From: a virus
Length of the DNA stretch: 47,374 bases
Reading direction: 5' to 3' (one strand)
IMG/VR virus record: IMGVR_UViG_3300032770_000004
Span: 1 to 47,374 of that record
Below are positions 21,299-45,867 of this stretch, one piece after another. How positions within the stretch are numbered: the first letter of the stretch is position 1; each line of letters begins with the position of its first letter. Below the pieces are notes generated by a model, which saw nothing but the letters and a program-made list of their open reading frames with translations, was not told the origin of the DNA and did not search any database. Made by a program: the position numbers and the translations under genes.

Positions 21299-21374
21299 TT
21301 GACAGTAGATCTAGAAGTTGTAGAATACTCGTCACCTCAGAACAACGGTTCCGAGGTTCTTTGACAACTGAATA
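21299..21374 (+). promoter_or_regulatory. tRNA-operon promoter (TTGACA-16-TAGAAT) plus boxB-like hairpin and boxA (GTTCTTTGACAACTGAATA)
   Basis: Same order and consensus as rrn leader antitermination elements. Confidence 0.7.
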
Positions 21375-21456: not shown

Positions 21457-21460
21457 CTTT

Positions 21461-21548
21461 GCTCGCTGGTGTATCGATCCAGCACGCCGGTTTACATTAC
21501 AAATATGTAGACAGGTAGACCGTGGTTCAACTCCACGGGCGAGCACCA
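21461..21548 (+). ncRNA. tRNA-like RNA with ~11-bp extended anticodon arm and encoded CCA
   Basis: GCTCGCT/GGCGAGC-ACCA; CCGGTTTACAT-tacaaat-ATGTAGACAGG; T-loop TTCAACT. Confidence 0.65.
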
Positions 21549-21549
21549 T

Positions 21550-21622
21550 GGAGTTATTGTGTAATGGCTAGCACCCCGGTCTCTTAAACCGCGCAGTCAG
21601 GGTTCGAATCCCTGTAACTCCA
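21550..21622 (+). tRNA. tRNA-Lys(CTT)
   Basis: Cloverleaf; ctCTTaa. Confidence 0.85.
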
Positions 21623-21623
21623 C

Positions 21624-21752
21624 TGATCTGAATGCTCGATTGGATTACATCTCTGCTAAAGATCTAGACCGGTTCAACTCCGGAACAGGGCACTCAATGC
21701 CCTTTTAGTGTAACGGTAGCACAGCAAACATCTAGTCAATTTTGTCAGGTCA
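21624..21752 (+). ncRNA. Y RNA-like (YrlA-type) #1 with permuted tRNA module
   Basis: TGATCTGAATGC..TACAT..T-arm CCGG-TTCAACT-CCGG, loop-closed acceptor AGGGCA-ctcaa-TGCCCT, D-arm, ..TTGTCAGGTCA. Confidence 0.75.
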
Positions 21753-21814
21753 CCTTAATTACTCAGCTAACGCAGGCATCGATCTTGCGTGACTGGTCGG
21801 AGAGACGATCGTTT

Positions 21815-21885
21815 GGGCTAATAGTATAGCGGGAATACGTTGCGCTGGCAGTGCAAAGTTCAGGGTTCGACTCCCTGTTGGTCCA
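21815..21885 (+). tRNA. tRNA-Ala(GGC)
   Basis: G3:U70; ctGGCag. Confidence 0.88.
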
Positions 21886-21886
21886 C

Positions 21887-21944
21887 TGGAGAATGCCTGA
21901 AGGTTTACATACGGCAAAAAGAAACTTTCAAATCCTTGTCTCCA
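21887..21944 (+). ncRNA. Y RNA-like #2 (minimal, no tRNA module)
   Basis: TGGAGAATGC-CTGAAGGTT-TACAT...AACTTTCA-AATCCTTGTCTCCA. Confidence 0.65.
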
Positions 21945-21954
21945 TTTGTTTTAT

Positions 21955-22023
21955 GCCCTGGTAGCTCAAAAGTAGAGCGCCAGTCCTAGACTGGAGGTTG
22001 GAGGTCCGAACCCTCCTCGGGCA
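21955..22023 (+). ncRNA. tRNA-like RNA with 5-nt anticodon loop (cCTAg)
   Basis: Canonical D arm TAGCTCAAAAGTAGAGC; CCAGT-cctag-ACTGG. Confidence 0.65.
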
Positions 22024-22026
22024 CTT

Positions 22027-22098
22027 ACCTGCTTAGTTCAGTAGCAGAACAGCGGCATCACAAGCCGAAGATCGCTGGTGCAAATCCAGCAGCGGGTA
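22027..22098 (+). tRNA. tRNA-Val(CAC)
   Basis: Cloverleaf; atCACaa. Confidence 0.78.
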
Positions 22099-22099
22099 C

Positions 22100-22213
22100 T
22101 AGAGAATGCGGTAGAGAATACATCCTCCACTCTTACGGGGGACGTAGGGTTCAACTCCCTCGACTTTCCCTACTAGATATTGGAACGCAAGACGGTCTTG
22201 CAGTTTGTTTTTC
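22100..22213 (+). ncRNA. Y RNA-like #3 (divergent, contains a T-arm)
   Basis: GAGAATGC-GGTAGAGAA-TACAT..AGGG-TTCAACT-CCCT..TTCCCTACT..TTGTT. Confidence 0.55.
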
Positions 22214-22235
22214 AATGAAGTATGTTGTCTCTTAT

Positions 22236-22312
22236 GGGGTACGGGGCTGCATGGGGTGGCCGCCAAGCTTGCACCTTGGAATTTCAGGTCGGTTCGATTC
22301 CGACGTGCTCCA
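22236..22312 (+). tRNA. tRNA-Ala(TGC)
   Basis: G3:U70; CCAAG-ctTGCac-CTTGG. Confidence 0.85.
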
Positions 22313-22316
22313 CAAA

Positions 22317-22380
22317 GCTGAATGCAGGTAGAATTACATGGAATTGTTATCCCAGAATACATTTTATCGATCTTGTCAGC
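22317..22380 (+). ncRNA. Y RNA-like #4 (minimal)
   Basis: GCTGAATGC-AGGTAGAAT-TACAT...ATTTTATC-GATCTTGTCAGC. Confidence 0.65.
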
Positions 22381-22386
22381 CCTTTT

Positions 22387-22458
22387 TGTTCCAGAGTCTG
22401 TGAAGATAGACAGAGGATTCATATCCCTCTTAAGTTGGTGCAAATCCAACTGGAACAA
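22387..22458 (+). tRNA. tRNA-Met/Ile2(CAT)
   Basis: TGTTCCA/TGGAACA; GAGGA-ttCATat-CCCTC. Confidence 0.6.
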
Positions 22459-22459
22459 C

Positions 22460-22598
22460 TACTCGAATGTCCGTAAAGGTCTACATTCTAACACCGAGGG
22501 TTGGAGCGTCGAGAACTCCCGCCGCAATCTTACGCGGCGTAGCTCAAAGGTAGAGCATCGGTCCCGAAAGGGGTTGACTTTTCAAATTTTGTCGAGTA
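22460..22598 (+). ncRNA. Y RNA-like (YrlA-type) #5 with permuted tRNA module
   Basis: TACTCGAATGT..TACAT..CCGA, T-like arm, CGCCGC-aatcttac-GCGGCG, D arm TAGCTCAAAGGTAGAGC, TCGG..TTGTCGAGTA. Confidence 0.75.
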
Positions 22599-22605
22599 TT
22601 CATAC

Positions 22606-22678
22606 GGTCGGTTAGCTCATGTGGTAGAGCGGCGCCTTTACACGGCGAAGGTCGTGGGTTCGAATCCCTCACCGACTA
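22606..22678 (+). tRNA. tRNA-Val(TAC)
   Basis: Canonical cloverleaf; ttTACac. Confidence 0.9.
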
Positions 22679-22679
22679 T

Positions 22680-22782
22680 GGGGAAGTCGTCTAACAGGAT
22701 AACCCTCCGCAAGGAGAATAAGTAAGACACCGTAACAGCCCTCCTAGGCACGGAGTCGTTGGTGCAAATCCAACCTTCTCCA
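22680..22782 (+). ncRNA. tRNA-like RNA with D-loop hairpin insertion, aberrant anticodon arm and Ala-type acceptor
   Basis: GGGGAAG/CTTCTCC-A (G3:U70, A73); CTCC-gcaa-GGAG in D loop; CCGT..GCC-ctccta-GGC-ACGG. Confidence 0.6.
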
Positions 22783-22891
22783 CTTGAAGTACTAAAGCCT
22801 CCTGACGAAAGAGCCGTTGGCACTAGCGGCTTGATCACTAAATAACTAGAAAACCCTTTGCTGGGGAGGGGCCAAGAACCCAGCGTAGTTT

Positions 22892-22963
22892 GCTCCCGTA
22901 GTACAATAGATAGAACGCAGCCCTGCGAAGGCTGAGATCCAGGTGCGATTCCTGGCGGGAGTA
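22892..22963 (+). tRNA. tRNA-Arg(GCG)
   Basis: CAGCC-ctGCGaa-GGCTG. Confidence 0.8.
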
Positions 22964-23063
22964 CAACGCGATCAATCCAAAAAGATTGCGCCAGTCGCTG
23001 GTGAAGGCCGTTAACCTCACTGGCGCAGCCCGCGAAATGTGACGGCTAGAGTAGCGGGTGTTT

Positions 23064-23140
23064 GGTCCCGTATCAGACCGAGCTTCGAACTCGGATCTTG
23101 TAATTGGATGAAAATGTAGGTTCGAGCCCTATCGGGACTG
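23064..23140 (+). tRNA. D-armless tRNA-Arg(TCG)-like
   Basis: GGTCCCG/CGGGACT-G; no D arm; CCGAG-ctTCGaa-CTCGG; long variable region; T arm. Confidence 0.6.
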
Positions 23141-23146
23141 CCTTCG

Positions 23147-23209
23147 AAGTGCCAGTTGCTTTGCGCTAATTGCCATGCGATAGTGACATATGAGAGACGA
23201 TTTGAATGA
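23147..23209 (+). pseudogene. C-terminal remnant of an HNH endonuclease
   Basis: Translates KCQLLCANCHAIVTYERRFE*, matching KCQVVCANCHAERT of the 23915 and 46347 HNH genes. Confidence 0.7.
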
Positions 23210-23219
23210 GGAAGAAAAT

Positions 23220-23290
23220 GCTCTGTTAGTTCAGTGGTAGAACGACGGTATGACTCACCGTAGGAGCTGGTTCGATTCCAGCACAGAGTA
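23220..23290 (+). tRNA. tRNA-Val(GAC) with atypical loop
   Basis: ACGGT-atGACtc-ACCGT; pyrimidine at position 37. Confidence 0.65.
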
Positions 23291-23320
23291 CTTCGAACGC
23301 GAGATCGAAAACAAAATTGA

Positions 23321-23392
23321 GTCGCTATCGGCTAGGAGTAAGGCTGTCAGATTCTCAATCTGAAGACCTGGGTGCGAATCCCAGTAGCGATA
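23321..23392 (+). tRNA. tRNA-Glu(CTC)
   Basis: TCAGA-ttCTCaa-TCTGA. Confidence 0.85.
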
Positions 23393-23396
23393 TGAA

Positions 23397-23468
23397 GCGC
23401 CTATCGTCCAAAGGCTAGGACACAGACCCGATAAGTCTGATATGTTGGTTCGACTCCAACTAGGCGTA
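23397..23468 (+). tRNA. tRNA-Ile(GAT)
   Basis: CAGAC-ccGATaa-GTCTG. Confidence 0.82.
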
Positions 23469-23682
23469 CATGCACGACCGATAGAACCGGACACACGAAA
23501 CCGGCAAGGTAGGTTCGTAAAGTGGCTTCTACTGCTCCACGTGCAAAAGGTAGAGGACTACAGTCCCTAAGATTGTCGAGCTGATCGCCGTAAGAGGATC
23601 AGGAACACGAGCTGAATGGATTTTCAGGCCTCTCCGGCTACGCGAGGATTAGGGGGTTCGATTCCCTCCGTTAAGTTTCTTA

Positions 23683-23743
23683 GCCGAATGCTCGTAAGTC
23701 TACATTTACTTAAAAATAAACGACTTACAAAATACTTGTCGGC
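23683..23743 (+). ncRNA. Y RNA-like #6 (minimal)
   Basis: GCCGAATGC-TCGTAAGTC-TACAT...GACTTAC-AAAATACTTGTCGGC. Confidence 0.68.
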
Positions 23744-23748
23744 ATTTT

Positions 23749-23821
23749 CTGGGTGAGGTGCATACGGGTGCATACACGGTCGGGATCCGTGGGGGAGCTG
23801 GTTCGATTCCAGCCACTCAGA
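23749..23821 (+). tRNA. tRNA-Pro(GGG)
   Basis: CACGG-tcGGGat-CCGTG. Confidence 0.78.
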
Positions 23822-23825
23822 CTAG

Positions 23826-23914: not shown

Positions 23915-24244
23915 ATGGCAAAGGTTTCCAAGGAGTATTACCGAGACTGGTATCAAAAGAACAAGGATCGGATTAAAGGACGCAAGAAAGAAGCTCGACA
24001 GAGAGCACGAGCTAAACTTCGTGCGATCGTGGATGTAGCCAAGCAGATTCCGTGTAAGGATTGTGGCGTTCAGTATCCACCATATGTAATGACTTTCGAT
24101 CATCTTGGTGACAAGAAATTTAATGTTGCGGACCTTGGTGGAGTGAGCATTGACGCCCTAAAGGCCGAAATCGCTAAGTGTCAAGTGGTCTGTGCTAATT
24201 GCCATGCTGAAAGAACTCATCGTAGGCGTATTGACAAAGGCTGA
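23915..24244 (+). CDS. HNH endonuclease
   Basis: PCKDCG..FDHL..KCQVVCANCH. Confidence 0.85.
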   Translation: MAKVSKEYYRDWYQKNKDRIKGRKKEARQRARAKLRAIVDVAKQIPCKDCGVQYPPYVMTFDHLGDKKFNVADLGGVSIDALKAEIAKCQVVCANCHAERTHRRRIDKG

Positions 24245-25510: not shown

Positions 25511-25993
25511 ATGCTCTTCAAGGTCGAAATCCTTCGTGGAATCCCTGGTTCTGGCAAGAGTACTTTCGCCAAGAAGCTCATCGAAGCTCGCAGCAAAGAG
25601 CTGAGTCGCCCTCTTGTCGCATGGGTAGACTATGTCATCGTGTCCGCCGATCAATTCTTCGAGCGTGATGGCGAGTACAAGTTCGATGCGAAGGAACTTG
25701 ATTCTGCCCACAAGATGTGCCTCCAGAACTTCGAGGCCGCTCTTCGTGGCAACATTCCCTACATCATCGTTGACAATACCAATCTGTCAGCGTGGGAAAT
25801 CTCGCCCTATTACCTGCTGGCTGATGCCAAAAACTACAGCGTGCGGATCATTACTGTGCGCGCCCCGCCCGAGGTGGCTCACAAGCGTGGTATTCACGGT
25901 GTGACTTGGAGCAAGACCACCCGGATGTTCGAGCGCTTGATTAAGGGTGAGCAGGAAATGCCCTGGCACTGGAAGAAAGAGAACTACCCATGA
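25511..25993 (+). CDS. P-loop kinase (AAA_33 / N4BP2- or PNK-like)
   Basis: RGIPGSGKST, VSAD, IIVDNTN, KRGIHGV; behind TTGACA(25476)-17-TAGACT. Confidence 0.85.
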   Translation: MLFKVEILRGIPGSGKSTFAKKLIEARSKELSRPLVAWVDYVIVSADQFFERDGEYKFDAKELDSAHKMCLQNFEAALRGNIPYIIVDNTNLSAWEISPYYLLADAKNYSVRIITVRAPPEVAHKRGIHGVTWSKTTRMFERLIKGEQEMPWHWKKENYP

Positions 25994-40652: not shown

Positions 40653-40688
40653 CTGTAGTAGTCTTTGACAATTGAATAGCAGTTATTT

Positions 40689-40762
40689 GCCGATGTAGCC
40701 CAAAGGTACGAGGCGCTGCGCTCAGAACGCAGAGGTTGCGAGTTCGAATCTCGCCATCGGTA
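40689..40762 (+). tRNA. tRNA-Leu(CAG), short variable loop
   Basis: CTGCG-ctCAGaa-CGCAG. Confidence 0.82.
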
Positions 40763-40764
40763 TG

Positions 40765-41050
40765 AAGTAGGTGCGACGATCGCTAGGACTGTATGTCTAG
40801 AGGAAAGTCGGGGCTCCGTAAGACACGATACCGGTTAACGGCCGGGTGGCAGTAATGTTACGCAACCTGCAACAGTGACGAACCGATTTAGTTCGGGTGA
40901 AACGGGCAGACTATCGGGAGCAAGCTCGAAACGGGATGGTCCGTCTGGCCATAATCCCAGGTTGAGTGCTTGAGGGATGTGGTAACATATCTCCTAGACG
41001 AATGATCGTCCCTCGCAAGAGGAACAGAACCCCGCTTATGGCCTACTACT
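40765..41050 (+). ncRNA. rnpB: RNase P RNA
   Basis: GAGGAAAGTCGGGCT (CR-I), GCAACAG, GTGAAACGG, CCTAGACGAATGATC, ACAGAACCCCGCTTAT (CR-V); terminal P1 pairing. Confidence 0.92.
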
Positions 41051-41053
41051 TTT

Positions 41054-41506
41054 ATGAAGTGTGAAACTTGTACGAATGAGATTGCTAGATACTCCACGAC
41101 AGGGCTGTGCAAGAGGTGTTATGGCCGTAAGTGGTGGAAAGAAAAGGCAAAAAATCCGGAAGTTCTTCGAAACCGAAGAGAACAACAAAAGCGGCCATTG
41201 CCTCGTTTTCAGCATGCCAAACGATCCGCTGCACACAGAAGAATAGATTGGAATTTGACGTTTGAGGAATGGGTCGAGATCAGTAGTCGTCCGTGTCACT
41301 ACTGCAACAACGAGATGGGGAAGACTGAGGGATATGGTGTCAATTTGGATCGTATCGATTGCTCAAAGGGATATTCTAAAGACAATGTGATTCCGTGTTG
41401 TGGGATTTGCAACAAGATTCGTAACAATTTTTGGACGGTGGACGAAATGAAGGTTGCCGTCAAGGCAGTTCTGGAGTATCGTCGTAAAGTTAGTTTGGAG
41501 GCTTAG
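41054..41506 (+). CDS. HNH endonuclease
   Basis: PCHYC..LDRID..KGYSKDNVIPCCGICN. Confidence 0.85.
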   Translation: MKCETCTNEIARYSTTGLCKRCYGRKWWKEKAKNPEVLRNRREQQKRPLPRFQHAKRSAAHRRIDWNLTFEEWVEISSRPCHYCNNEMGKTEGYGVNLDRIDCSKGYSKDNVIPCCGICNKIRNNFWTVDEMKVAVKAVLEYRRKVSLEA

Positions 41507-44772: not shown

Positions 44773-45180
44773 ATGAGCACGCACGCAAGTATTGCAGTTG
44801 AGCACGAGGACGGAACCATTAGCGCTGTCTATTGCCACTTTGATGGCTACCTGAGTGGTGTAGGCAAGGACTTGGTGGCACACTTCAACAGCCTCAAGGC
44901 GGCCGAAGAGCTGATCAAGAAGGGCGACTTGAGTGGGACCAACAGTTCCGAGGGCAAGCCCAAGTACTACACCGACGACGGCGAAGATTTCGAAGACGTG
45001 AAGCCGCGTTTTTACCAGAACCTCGGGGAATATCTGAAGAAGATCGGTGATGACATTTGCGGCGAGTACGACTACCTTTTCACTGATGGTGAGTGGAAGG
45101 TGCTTTCGAACAGCCGAGTCCGCCTCAAGAACACCAGTAAGCTGATCCCCGTGAAGAACGCCGAAGAGGTTGATGAGTGA
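44773..45180 (+). CDS. Conserved phage protein (ST.a.I..YCHxDGY family)
   Basis: MSTHASI..YCHFDGY..VG..L..EYDYLF. Confidence 0.75.
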   Translation: MSTHASIAVEHEDGTISAVYCHFDGYLSGVGKDLVAHFNSLKAAEELIKKGDLSGTNSSEGKPKYYTDDGEDFEDVKPRFYQNLGEYLKKIGDDICGEYDYLFTDGEWKVLSNSRVRLKNTSKLIPVKNAEEVDE

Positions 45181-45389
45181 TGACCGTCTATGTCGTGTTG
45201 ATGTCAATCGGTGAACACACCACTGCTATCGATGGCGTCTACTCCGACCTAGAGAAGGCCAAGGCGAGCGTTGAAACGAAACACGACAAACCCATTCACT
45301 GGATCGTCCATAACTTTCGCGGCCTTTGCTGCACCGCCCTTTTCTCAAACGGCGTCCTACATAGCATTCATGAACAGGAGGTGCTGTAA
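45177..45389 (+). CDS. Small hypothetical protein
   Basis: VYVVL..IDGVYSDLEKA. Confidence 0.6.
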   Translation: MMTVYVVLMSIGEHTTAIDGVYSDLEKAKASVETKHDKPIHWIVHNFRGLCCTALFSNGVLHSIHEQEVL

Positions 45390-45501: not shown

Positions 45502-45867
45502 ATGCGACAGGAAGAGATCTTCAAGAAGGTGGTAGAGGGCCTCGCAAAACAGGGTTTTCGACAGTCAGTGAAACCGTCAGTATTCGGTTTACCGACGTGC
45601 TCCTATCGTGGCGTGGAAGGCCGCAAATGTGCTGCTGGTTTCCTGATTCCCGACGAGATCTACAAACCCGAGTTTGAGGGTAAGAATGTTCTCGCCCTCC
45701 AATCGGTGTTTGAGGGATTGGGCTTCACCAAGAGGCAGGTGGAATTCCTGCATCAACTTCAATTTCTTCATGATACCTGCTTATGTCCTGTGGACATGAA
45801 GGATGCGTTTAGGTGGCTTGCTAAACGACTGAAGGTCAAGATGCCCAAGGCTCTGATCGAGGAGTGA
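45502..45867 (+). CDS. Hypothetical protein (paralog A)
   Basis: C.YRG..G.KCA.G.LIP..Y..EG..LQ..HD. Confidence 0.75.
   Translation: MRQEEIFKKVVEGLAKQGFRQSVKPSVFGLPTCSYRGVEGRKCAAGFLIPDEIYKPEFEGKNVLALQSVFEGLGFTKRQVEFLHQLQFLHDTCLCPVDMKDAFRWLAKRLKVKMPKALIEE

What the first reader, a model, noticed from the sequence alone, without database searches (positions are those of the whole stretch)
21624..23743. Array of six Y RNA-like genes with a shared scaffold and swappable modules
Seen: six spacers in the tRNA array (21624, 21887, 22100, 22317, 22460, 23683) share the layout [stem]GAATGY-NN-[8-9 bp stem]-TACAT-[variable]-[stem']-..TTGTC[stem']; #3 ends in TTGTT. The stems covary (GCCGA/TCGGC, GCTGA/TCAGC, CTCGA/TCGAG, GGAGA/TCTCC). 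The variable part is a complete circularly permuted tRNA (T arm, loop-closed acceptor stem, D arm) in #1 and #5, a T-arm domain in #3, and a short loop in #2, #4 and #6. Established: bacterial YrlA Y RNAs have a GNCGAA-type Ro60/Rsr-binding helix and a permuted tRNA-like domain, and act with Rsr, PNPase and RtcB-linked RNA repair. Inference: the phage expresses a diversified Y RNA panel that sponges or retargets a Ro60 protein. No Ro60/TROVE gene is in this window.
Basis: partly seen in the sequence, partly recalled or inferred. Interest (0 to 1): 0.9.

Follow-up and report, generated by a model that had tools for sequence, protein, structure and literature searches.

The report
Phage Y RNA panel in tRNA operon
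A 170-kb relative of Myxococcus phage Mx1 hides five clear and one decayed Y RNA genes between its tRNA genes. They are the likely partners of a Ro60 ring protein that the phage itself encodes 82 kb away, so this is a known kind of particle in an unusually large, modular and tRNA-embedded form.

Summary
Six + strand spacers (21624-23743) share one two-helix handle: outer stem ending in GA, AUGY bulge, 7-9 bp inner stem, UACAU, variable interior, A-rich strand, UUG, UC plus outer stem. Five are significant under a covariance model built almost entirely from other phages (E 7e-18 to 4e-6). Copy 3 is degenerate (12 bits) and ends in TTGTCTCT, not TTGTT.

The Y RNA reading is supported, but not the idea of sponging a foreign Ro60. 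The phage encodes its own full-length Ro60/Rsr at genome position 105266-106852 (minus strand).
- Among Mx1-like genomes, only the two with Ro60 (this one and Mx1) carry the handle. Twelve near-complete Ro60-less relatives have none.
- In 80 other viral Ro60 loci the same handle occurs 92 times, always on the Ro60 strand, often in arrays of 2-7.
- Covariation is overwhelming (99.3% of cells paired, against 66.6% when shuffled).

Interiors differ: permuted tRNA mimics (1, 5), a T arm plus hairpins (3), short loops (2, 4, 6). Most copies sit flush between tRNAs, so tRNA-processing enzymes probably release them (inferred).

Phage Ro60/Y RNA pairs are published. The six-member modular panel far from Ro60 is a variant. 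This scan has noted similar arrays in other phages.

The parts
21624..21752 (+). Y1: long Y RNA. Handle (outer stem UGAUCUGA/UCAGGUCA, inner stem GAUUGGAU/AUCUAGUC) plus a permuted tRNA-like interior (T arm CCGG-UUCAACU-CCGG, loop-closed acceptor AGGGCA/UGCCCU, D arm GUGU-AACGGUA-GCAC).
   Evidence: Fold (z -2.7). R2 handle model 34.1 bits, E 4e-6. The re-permuted interior is called a tRNA by ARAGORN at the 95% threshold. It starts 1-2 nt after tRNA-Lys.
21887..21944 (+). Y2: short, YrlB-like Y RNA made of the handle and a 17-nt A-rich loop.
   Evidence: R2 55.8 bits, E 1.5e-11. Rfam YrlA 26.5 bits. Fold. It starts flush after tRNA-Ala(GGC) and ends 9-10 nt before the next tRNA.
22100..22233 (+). 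Y3: degenerate copy. The 5' half is intact (AGAGAAUGCGG-UAGAGAA-UACAU) and the 3' end is UUGUCUCU, but the inner stem is mismatched. The interior holds a T arm and two hairpins.
   Evidence: R2 only 12.3 bits, with two non-pairs in the inner stem. The outer stem is recovered by the fold. It is flush between tRNA-Val(CAC) and tRNA-Ala(UGC).
22317..22380 (+). Y4: short Y RNA made of the handle and a 26-nt loop.
   Evidence: R2 37.7 bits, E 5e-7. Fold. It lies 3 nt after tRNA-Ala(UGC) and 6 nt before tRNA-Met(CAU).
22460..22598 (+). Y5: long YrlA-type Y RNA. Handle plus a permuted tRNA-like interior (T arm, acceptor CGCCGC/GCGGCG closed by a loop, UA, D arm GCUC-AAAGGUA-GAGC).
   Evidence: Rfam YrlA 33.4 bits, E 1e-4, with the T, acceptor and D arms aligned. 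R2 35.2 bits, E 2e-6. It is flush after tRNA-Met and ends 7 nt before tRNA-Val(UAC).
23683..23743 (+). Y6: short Y RNA. It is the only copy with the full published GNCGAANG motif (GCCGAAUG).
   Evidence: R2 81 bits (it was the seed of R1). Rfam YrlA 25.3 bits. Fold z -2.8. It ends 5 nt before tRNA-Pro(GGG).
21550..21623 (+). tRNA-Lys(CUU), whose 3' end abuts Y1. It stands for the tRNAs that bracket the Y RNAs: 21815-21886, 21954-22024, 22027-22099, 22236-22313, 22387-22459, 22606-22678 and 23749-23822.
   Evidence: ARAGORN and Rfam tRNA calls.
21299..21326 (+). Sigma-70-like promoter (TTGACA-16-TAGAAT, 11 of 12 matches) upstream of the tRNA/Y RNA run.
   Evidence: This is a consensus match only.
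40764..41053 (+). Phage-encoded RNase P RNA (class A). It is a candidate enzyme for cutting at the tRNA 5' ends that would define the Y RNA 3' ends.
   Evidence: Rfam RF00010, 154.9 bits, E 4e-48. The link to Y RNA maturation is inference.

Best explanation
These are phage-encoded Y RNAs of the YrlA/YrlB type, five intact and one decayed. They are the RNA partners of the phage's own Ro60/Rsr ring protein (529 aa, genome 105266-106852, minus strand).

The RNAs are transcribed with the tRNAs as one precursor (inferred). They are then probably released by the tRNA-processing machinery. RNase Z-type or exonucleolytic trimming at the upstream tRNA 3' end would define the Y RNA 5' end. RNase P cutting at the downstream tRNA 5' end would define the Y RNA 3' end (inferred from the flush junctions).

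The constant handle docks on Ro60: outer stem, AUGC bulge, inner stem with a conserved G-C and G.U, UACAU, and the A-rich...CUUG strand. This is inferred by homology to YrlA and from the genomic linkage. The interchangeable interior decides what the particle is tethered to.
- The tRNA mimics (Y1, Y5) would recruit tRNA-binding enzymes, or act as tRNA decoys.
- The short forms (Y2, Y4, Y6) would act as gates or tethers to an exoribonuclease such as host PNPase, as shown for Deinococcus Rsr and for Thermus phage phiLo.

The result would be a set of differently targeted Ro60 particles that reshape RNA decay, quality control or repair in the infected cell, alongside the phage's tRNA set, RNase P RNA, PNK-like kinase and RNA ligase.
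For: The protein.
- TROVE plus vWA_Ro60 domains.
- Full-length match to D. radiodurans Rsr 2NVO, E 9e-21, and matches to phiLo Ro60 9KOP and to human and Xenopus Ro60.
- PHROG 850, E 4e-44.
- 50-81% identical homologues in soil bacteria and phage contigs.

The handle is of YrlA type.
- Consensus comparison.
- Sub-threshold YrlA hits for Y5, Y2 and Y6.

Linkage to Ro60.
- In 80 IMG/VR Ro60 loci, the strict descriptor finds 92 handle elements. All are on the Ro60 strand and none on the other. 49 of 91 lie within 1 kb of the gene. Copy number is 1-7 per locus.
- All 38 R1 hits lie on the + strand; in the fetched loci that is the Ro60 strand.

Structure. On 38 sequences, 99.3% of cells are paired against 66.6% when shuffled, and 11 of 12 pairs show compensatory changes. 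Controls with the partner columns slid collapse to 30-58%.

A near-independent model. R2 was built from 36 foreign and 2 local sequences. It finds exactly Y6, Y2, Y4, Y5 and Y1 in the 47-kb window and nothing else at E below 0.1.

Phyletic pattern.
- Only this genome (6 copies) and Mx1 (2 copies) have both Ro60 and the handle.
- Twelve relatives that are at least 90% complete have neither.

Flush tRNA junctions.

Published precedent: Chen 2014 (PMC4201824) and phiLo 2025 (PMC12135203).
Against: - No expression, end-mapping or binding data exist for these RNAs.
- No copy reaches Rfam's YrlA cut-off (best 33.4 bits against 69).
- The strict GNCGAANG motif is met only by Y6.
- The array lies about 82 kb from Ro60 and on the other strand, unlike the published rule of within 4 kb on the same strand.
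- Sub-threshold YrlA hits are unspecific: tandem tRNAs in relatives also score, and 13 of 14 control genomes ring.
- The A6 alignment was fitted to the model's structure, which inflates pairing counts somewhat.
- Y3 may be non-functional.
- The partner of each interior module is pure inference.
Confidence: 0.8

Rival explanations
1. One reading: the RNAs act mainly on the host's Ro60, as sponges or retargeting decoys, not on a phage protein.
For: The phage Ro60 is 50-53% identical to bacterial Rsr proteins, including one labelled Myxococcales (P0101). A host Rsr could therefore recognise the same handle. Six copies expressed from a tRNA operon would be abundant.
Against: The phage carries its own Ro60. 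The handle is absent from all 12 near-complete relatives that lack Ro60, which would not be expected if the target were a host protein. In other phages the handle sits directly beside the phage Ro60 gene.
Confidence: 0.1
2. They are processing or spacer structures of the tRNA operon (precursor-folding or cleavage guides) with no role after tRNA release. The resemblance to Y RNA would come from their descent from tRNA.
For: They fill the inter-tRNA spacers almost exactly. The interiors look derived from tRNAs. Rfam YrlA also hits plain tandem tRNAs.
Against: The conserved part is the non-tRNA handle. That handle recurs next to Ro60 genes in loci with no tRNAs at all (for example L121, L146, L116 and L156). 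Relatives with equally dense tRNA arrays but no Ro60 lack it.
Confidence: 0.05
3. The tRNA-like copies (Y1, Y5) are permuted tRNA genes, or decoys aimed at host tRNA-targeting defence nucleases, and act independently of Ro60.
For: The re-permuted Y1 and Mx1 copy A interiors are recognised as cloverleaf tRNAs. The phage carries a large tRNA set, a PNK-like kinase and an RNA ligase noted elsewhere in the genome. A Ro60-like protein of phage Bas63 counters a defence system (PMC11482910).
Against: There is no anticodon loop: the anticodon stem continues into the Ro60 handle. The acceptor stem is closed by a loop and there is no free CCA end. The short copies have no tRNA part yet keep the handle.
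Confidence: 0.05

Closest known systems
YrlA / YrlB Y RNAs bound by bacterial and mycobacteriophage Rsr (Rfam RF02553; Chen et al. 2014, PMC4201824)
   Same: - A terminal helix with the CGAAUG-type 5' strand and the A-rich...UUGUC 3' strand.
- Long forms carry a permuted tRNA-like domain (T arm, loop-closed acceptor stem, D arm).
- Short forms lack that domain, like YrlB.
- A Ro60 gene is present in the same genome.
- At least two Y RNAs per genome.
   Different: - Six copies instead of one to three.
- About 82 kb from Ro60 and on the opposite strand, not within 4 kb on the same strand.
- Embedded flush between tRNAs.
- The C of CGAA is replaced, with compensation, in four of the six copies.
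- Scores are far below the Rfam cut-off.
- An extra conserved UACAU follows the inner stem.
Thermus phage phiLo Ro60 with Yrl1 and Yrl2 (PMC12135203; PDB 9KOP, 9L5Y)
   Same: A phage-encoded Ro60 with several phage-encoded Y-like RNAs of stem-bulge-stem design containing CGAA. That study showed a ternary complex with host PNPase, which is the basis for the mechanism proposed here.
   Different: In phiLo the two RNAs lie just upstream of Ro60 and no tRNA-operon embedding is described. The protein match is only E 5e-14 over residues 23-371.
Deinococcus radiodurans Rsr-Yrn1-PNPase (RYPER)
   Same: Ro60 ring plus Y RNA acting as gate and tether. The protein is the best solved match (2NVO, E 9e-21).
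   Different: Yrn1 has a different arrangement of its tRNA-like arms and a different handle sequence.
tRNA-linked release of non-coding RNAs (mascRNA/MALAT1, gammaherpesvirus 68 tRNA-miRNA units, plant tRNA-snoRNA precursors). This comparison comes from my own knowledge.
   Same: A neighbouring tRNA structure would supply the RNase P or RNase Z cut that defines the end of a non-tRNA RNA.
   Different: Here both ends of most Y RNAs are bracketed by tRNAs in a bacterial virus. Processing has not been shown.

Membership tests
YrlA (Rfam RF02553) | Score at or above the curated gathering cut-off (69 bits) | tested here: not met
   Best scores are Y5 33.4, Y2 26.5 and Y6 25.3 bits. Y1, Y3 and Y4 give no hit.
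YrlA (Rfam RF02553) | GNCGAAN0-1G motif near the 5' end (Chen 2014) | tested here: inconclusive
   Y6 has the full motif (GCCGAAUG). Y5 has CUCGAAUG. Y1-Y4 keep GAAUG, but the C-G pair is replaced by U-A or A-U with compensation. Across 38 family members that pair is C-G in 25 and compensated in 13.
YrlA (Rfam RF02553) | Permuted tRNA-like domain: T arm, loop-closed acceptor stem, D arm | tested here: met
   Met for Y1 (ARAGORN at the 95% threshold after re-permutation) and for Y5 (aligned to the model's three arms). Partial in Y3 (T arm only). Absent in Y2, Y4 and Y6, which resemble YrlB.
YrlA (Rfam RF02553) | Encoded within about 4 kb of Ro60 on the same strand | tested here: not met
   Ro60 lies at genome 105266-106852 on the minus strand, and the array at 21.6-23.7 kb on the plus strand. 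No handle is found near Ro60 (locus L098). In Mx1 the distance is 11.6 kb on the same strand. In 35 other phage loci the same handle does lie next to Ro60.
Y RNA in the functional sense (Ro60-bound RNA) | Physical binding to Ro60, and dependence on Ro60 for stability | not testable with these tools
   Only genomic co-occurrence is available.
Phage handle family modelled here (R2) | Two covarying helices around GAAUGC / UACAU / CUUGUC | tested here: met
   Five of six copies score E 4e-6 or better. Y3 scores 12.3 bits.
Ro60 / Rsr (the protein partner) | TROVE HEAT-repeat ring plus C-terminal vWA domain | tested here: met
   PF05731 at 1.3e-8 and PF25045 at 1.8e-19. Match to 2NVO over residues 12-514 of 529.

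The most novel reading that the evidence does not exclude
The six RNAs would be a natural adaptor library. One phage Ro60 ring would be loaded with interchangeable RNA modules, each directing it, and a recruited host exoribonuclease, to a different client. The tRNA-mimic members would serve as decoys or sensors against host tRNA-cleaving or other nucleic-acid defence systems. Ro60/Y RNA arrays would then be a widespread, undescribed phage counter-defence organ, in line with Bas63 gp130 countering Ppl.
Probability: 0.15. Interest if true: 0.8.

Novelty: new variant of a known kind. Interest (0 to 1): 0.5.

Why it matters
What the tRNA-like domain does, and why cells keep several Y RNAs, are open questions in Ro60 biology. 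This work offers a way to approach them.

- Natural panels of Y RNAs share one docking handle but carry different interiors. They recur in dozens of phages, so interior type can be compared against partner proteins and hosts.
- Cultivable phage Mx1, with its own Ro60 and two such RNAs, gives a direct experimental system in Myxococcus xanthus.
- Published search rules (within 4 kb of Ro60, tandem-tRNA regions discarded) and the Rfam model miss these genes.
- At least one of these RNAs is currently annotated as a protein, in Mx1.

Tried and rejected
- Rfam at gathering threshold: no YrlA hit. Very narrow cmscan windows lost even the sub-threshold hits.
- Megablast of the array against GenBank phages: no match.
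- MAFFT alignments of the copies (A1, A2) were not in structural register, so I did not use them for a model.
- A single-sequence model (R1) found only the short forms.
- The 54 loci around the capsid gene of Mx1-like relatives held no handle.
- Sub-threshold YrlA hits in relatives G003, G005, G029, G036 and G042 turned out to be tandem tRNAs, so I rejected them.
- Searching viral contigs with the single Ro60 protein found nothing. An alignment of homologues was needed.
- No RtcB in this phage or in Mx1.
- Minus-strand and distant descriptor hits in the genome look like chance.
- The supplementary tables of Chen 2014 and the 2020 Annual Review were not available.
I could therefore not inspect the contig of the 81%-identical Ro60 (P0002).
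Full report
**What is there**

The window is the first 47 kb of a 169,962-bp virus record with direct terminal repeats. It is an uncultured relative of Myxococcus phage Mx1: the structural genes are syntenic at 32-61% identity, and the Ro60 proteins are 45% identical.

Between 21.1 and 25.5 kb lies a dense + strand run of tRNA genes.

| Copy | Coordinates |
|---|---|
| Y1 | 21624-21752 |
| Y2 | 21887-21944 |
| Y3 | 22100-22233 |
| Y4 | 22317-22380 |
| Y5 | 22460-22598 |
| Y6 | 23683-23743 |

Each has the same parts in order:
- an outer stem whose last two pairs are G-C and A-U (the GA of GAAUG with the UC of UUGUC);
- a 5' bulge AUGY plus 1-5 nt;
- an inner stem of 7-9 bp;
- UACAU;
- a variable interior;
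- the 3' strand of the inner stem;
- a 7-10 nt A-rich strand ending in UUG;
- the 3' strand of the outer stem.

Minimum-free-energy folds recover this two-helix handle in five copies, and the outer helix in Y3.

**More than chance**

- A strict descriptor finds five copies in 2.1 kb. Shuffled genomes give 0.06 hits per 170 kb on both strands.
- I compared the six copies plus the two Mx1 copies. Each 5' strand pairs with its own 3' strand at 54 of 56 inner and 28 of 32 outer positions. Strands taken from different copies pair at about 4.0 of 7 and 1.6 of 4. The permutation P is about 1e-4.
- The three outer-stem pairs next to GA/UC take the forms C-G, U-A, A-U and G-C.

**Identity of the handle**

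The consensus line of Rfam YrlA is cggCgaAUGCuuggGgaaCUA ... ccaaAaAcUuGucGccg. That is the same design and largely the same letters. Y5, Y2 and Y6 give sub-threshold YrlA hits of 33.4, 26.5 and 25.3 bits against a cut-off of 69.

Such hits alone prove little. The same search rings in 13 of 14 control genomes. In Mx1-like relatives it hits plain tandem tRNAs, where the T arm of one tRNA and the D arm of the next imitate the permuted domain. Chen et al. 2014 already warned about this artefact (PMC4201824).

**The protein partner**

- It is 529 aa, with TROVE and Ro60-type vWA domains.
- It matches D. radiodurans Rsr (2NVO) end to end at E 9e-21.
- It also matches human and Xenopus Ro60 and the Ro60 of Thermus phage phiLo.
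- It has thousands of homologues. The nearest are 50-81% identical and come from soil bacteria and phage contigs.

Mx1 has the orthologue at 56915-58564.

**Linkage of handle and Ro60**

1. Within the Mx1-like group, a protein search over 30 records found Ro60 only in this genome, in Mx1, and as a distant 26% form in one partial contig.
   - Handle searches by pattern, by Rfam YrlA and by my family model R2 found the handle only in this genome and in Mx1.
   - Mx1 has two copies, at 45171-45292 and 45521-45624, also inside its tRNA array. The second is annotated as a hypothetical protein.
   - Twelve relatives that are at least 90% complete have no match at E of 0.1 or better.
2. Outside the group, an alignment of Ro60 homologues retrieved 80 IMG/VR loci. 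The strict descriptor found 92 handle elements in them.
   - All 92 are on the Ro60 strand and none on the other.
   - They occur in 35 loci.
   - 49 of 91 lie within 1 kb of the gene.
   - Copy number within the 10-kb flanks is 1 to 7.
   - Of the 81 non-identical elements, 31 are 80 nt or shorter and 33 are longer than 110 nt.
   - 19 of the 33 long ones contain a T-loop motif.
   - 29 of 91 lie within 15 nt of a same-strand tRNA.
3. The single-sequence model R1 gave 38 hits at E of 0.01 or better in 1.28 Mb. All are on the + strand, which in the fetched loci is the Ro60 strand.
   - On that alignment, 99.3% of cells form standard pairs against 66.6% when shuffled.
   - 11 of 12 pairs show changes on both sides, in 138 cells against 34 when shuffled.
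   - Sliding the partner columns drops pairing to 30-58%.
   - The alignment was fitted to the model, so these counts lean towards the structure. The margin is nevertheless very large.
   - One inner-stem G-C is invariant, and the neighbouring pair is G.U in 24 of 38 and A-U in 11. These are likely recognition features.
4. Model R2 was built from that alignment (36 foreign sequences and 2 from this window). Run without filters over the whole window, it returns exactly five hits and nothing else below E 0.1:

| Copy | R2 bits |
|---|---|
| Y6 | 81 |
| Y2 | 55.8 |
| Y4 | 37.7 |
| Y5 | 35.2 |
| Y1 | 34.1 |

Y3 reaches only 12.3 bits, with two broken inner-stem pairs. I read Y3 as a decaying or highly divergent copy.

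**The interiors**

- **Y5** aligns to the T arm, loop-closed acceptor stem and D arm of YrlA.
- **Y1 and Mx1 copy A.** I cut the acceptor-closing loop and capped the connecting stem with an artificial anticodon loop, inside a script. ARAGORN then calls a cloverleaf tRNA for Mx1 copy A at default settings and for Y1 at the 95% threshold. Y5 fails, probably because of a C.A mismatch in its T stem. The unpermuted sequences are not called at these thresholds.
- **Y3** has a T arm with the same loop as Y1 (UUCAACU), plus two hairpins.
- **Y2, Y4 and Y6** have 17-26 nt loops, like the short YrlB-type partners described in Salmonella and M. smegmatis.

The phrase "shared scaffold and swappable modules" is therefore accurate, both here and across the wider family.

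**Position among the tRNAs**

| Copy | Distance after the upstream tRNA end | Distance before the next tRNA |
|---|---|---|
| Y1 | 0-3 nt | 62 nt |
| Y2 | 0-3 nt | 2-10 nt |
| Y3 | 0-3 nt | 2-10 nt |
| Y4 | 0-3 nt | 2-10 nt |
| Y5 | 0-3 nt | 2-10 nt |
| Y6 | follows a tRNA-like element with a good T arm (23652-23669) | 2-10 nt |

A strong sigma-70-like promoter lies upstream at 21299-21326. The phage has its own RNase P RNA at 40764-41053. A PNK-like kinase gene follows the array at 25511-25993. No RtcB is present.

**Mechanism**

*Shown:* the elements exist, their helices covary, they belong to a handle family that tracks Ro60 genes, and this phage encodes Ro60.

*Inferred:*
- co-transcription with the tRNAs;
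- release by RNase P and by tRNA 3'-end processing;
- docking of the handle on Ro60;
- interiors acting as alternative tethers or gates, by analogy with the Rsr-Y RNA-PNPase complex of Deinococcus and with phiLo Ro60-Yrl-PNPase (PMC4201824; PMC12135203).

A defence-related role is conceivable. A Ro60-like protein of phage Bas63 counters the Ppl system, and its authors suspected Y RNAs among the neighbouring tRNA genes (PMC11482910). A Listeria phage also has three highly expressed candidate Y RNAs upstream of an Rsr-like gene (PMC12282133).

**Comparison and novelty**

Phage Ro60 with Y RNAs is published: 22 phages in Chen 2014 and phiLo in 2025. What I did not find in the papers searched:
- panels of six or more Y RNAs with exchanged interiors;
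- their placement inside tRNA operons far from Ro60;
- any mention of them for Mx1.

The published search rules (within 4 kb, same strand, tandem-tRNA regions discarded) would have missed them.

Notes from this same scan describe similar multi-RNA arrays beside Ro60-like genes in other phages. My survey shows independently that arrays with this very handle are common. I therefore rate this a new variant of a known kind, of moderate interest.

**Limits**

- There are no expression or binding data.
- E-values from my models are rough, by the tool's own statement.

Noticed in passing
window 40764-41053 (+): A compact bacterial class A RNase P RNA (154.9 bits, E 4e-48) begins immediately after tRNA-Leu(CAG), which spans 40688-40763. 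Phage-encoded RNase P RNA is uncommon.
   Followed up: partly
window 21458-21549 (+): A tRNA-like RNA with normal acceptor stem and T arm, but an anticodon arm lengthened to about 11 bp (UUUACAU/AUGUAGA) and an encoded CCA. The fold z-score is -4.3. ARAGORN does not call it.
   Followed up: partly
window 22679-22785 (+): A 105-nt tRNA-like RNA. It has an 8-bp acceptor stem and a T arm (GUUGG-UGCAAAU-CCAAC), with extra hairpins in place of a normal D/anticodon region. The fold z-score is -2.6.
   Followed up: no
window 21954-22024 (+): A tRNA with anticodon CUA, which would read amber codons (ARAGORN at a relaxed threshold; Rfam tRNA 39.8 bits). It could be a phage suppressor tRNA.
   Followed up: no
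window 23470-23682 (+): An unresolved 210-nt spacer before Y6. It contains a good T arm (GGGGG-UUCGAUU-CCCUC) and a GCUGAAUGG word, but no recognisable tRNA or Y RNA handle.
   Followed up: partly
window 25511-25993 (+); also 23915-24244 and 41054-41506: A PNK-like ATPase (PHROG 2071 and 505) lies directly after the first tRNA/Y RNA array. HNH or endonuclease VII genes are inserted within the arrays.
   Followed up: partly
L013 3022-3125 (Mx1 OR576727.2 45521-45624): The second Mx1 Y RNA is covered by an annotated 40-aa hypothetical protein (WNM70101.1, 45524-45646). This is probably a mis-annotation.
   Followed up: yes
alignment A6 (38 handle RNAs from Ro60 phages): One inner-stem pair is an invariant G-C. 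The neighbouring pair is G.U in 24 of 38 sequences and A-U in 11. Together with UACAU, these are likely Ro60 contact points shared by the whole phage family.
   Followed up: partly
L082, L083, L084, L085, L086 (Mx1-like relatives): Rfam YrlA gives 15-28 bit hits on ordinary tandem tRNA pairs. This is a systematic false positive of that model in phage tRNA arrays.
   Followed up: yes
L099 (G012:C1:39034-40533): A partial Mx1-like contig carries a distant Ro60 (26% identity, with one in-frame TAG) and no handle of this type. It may use a different Y RNA.
   Followed up: no
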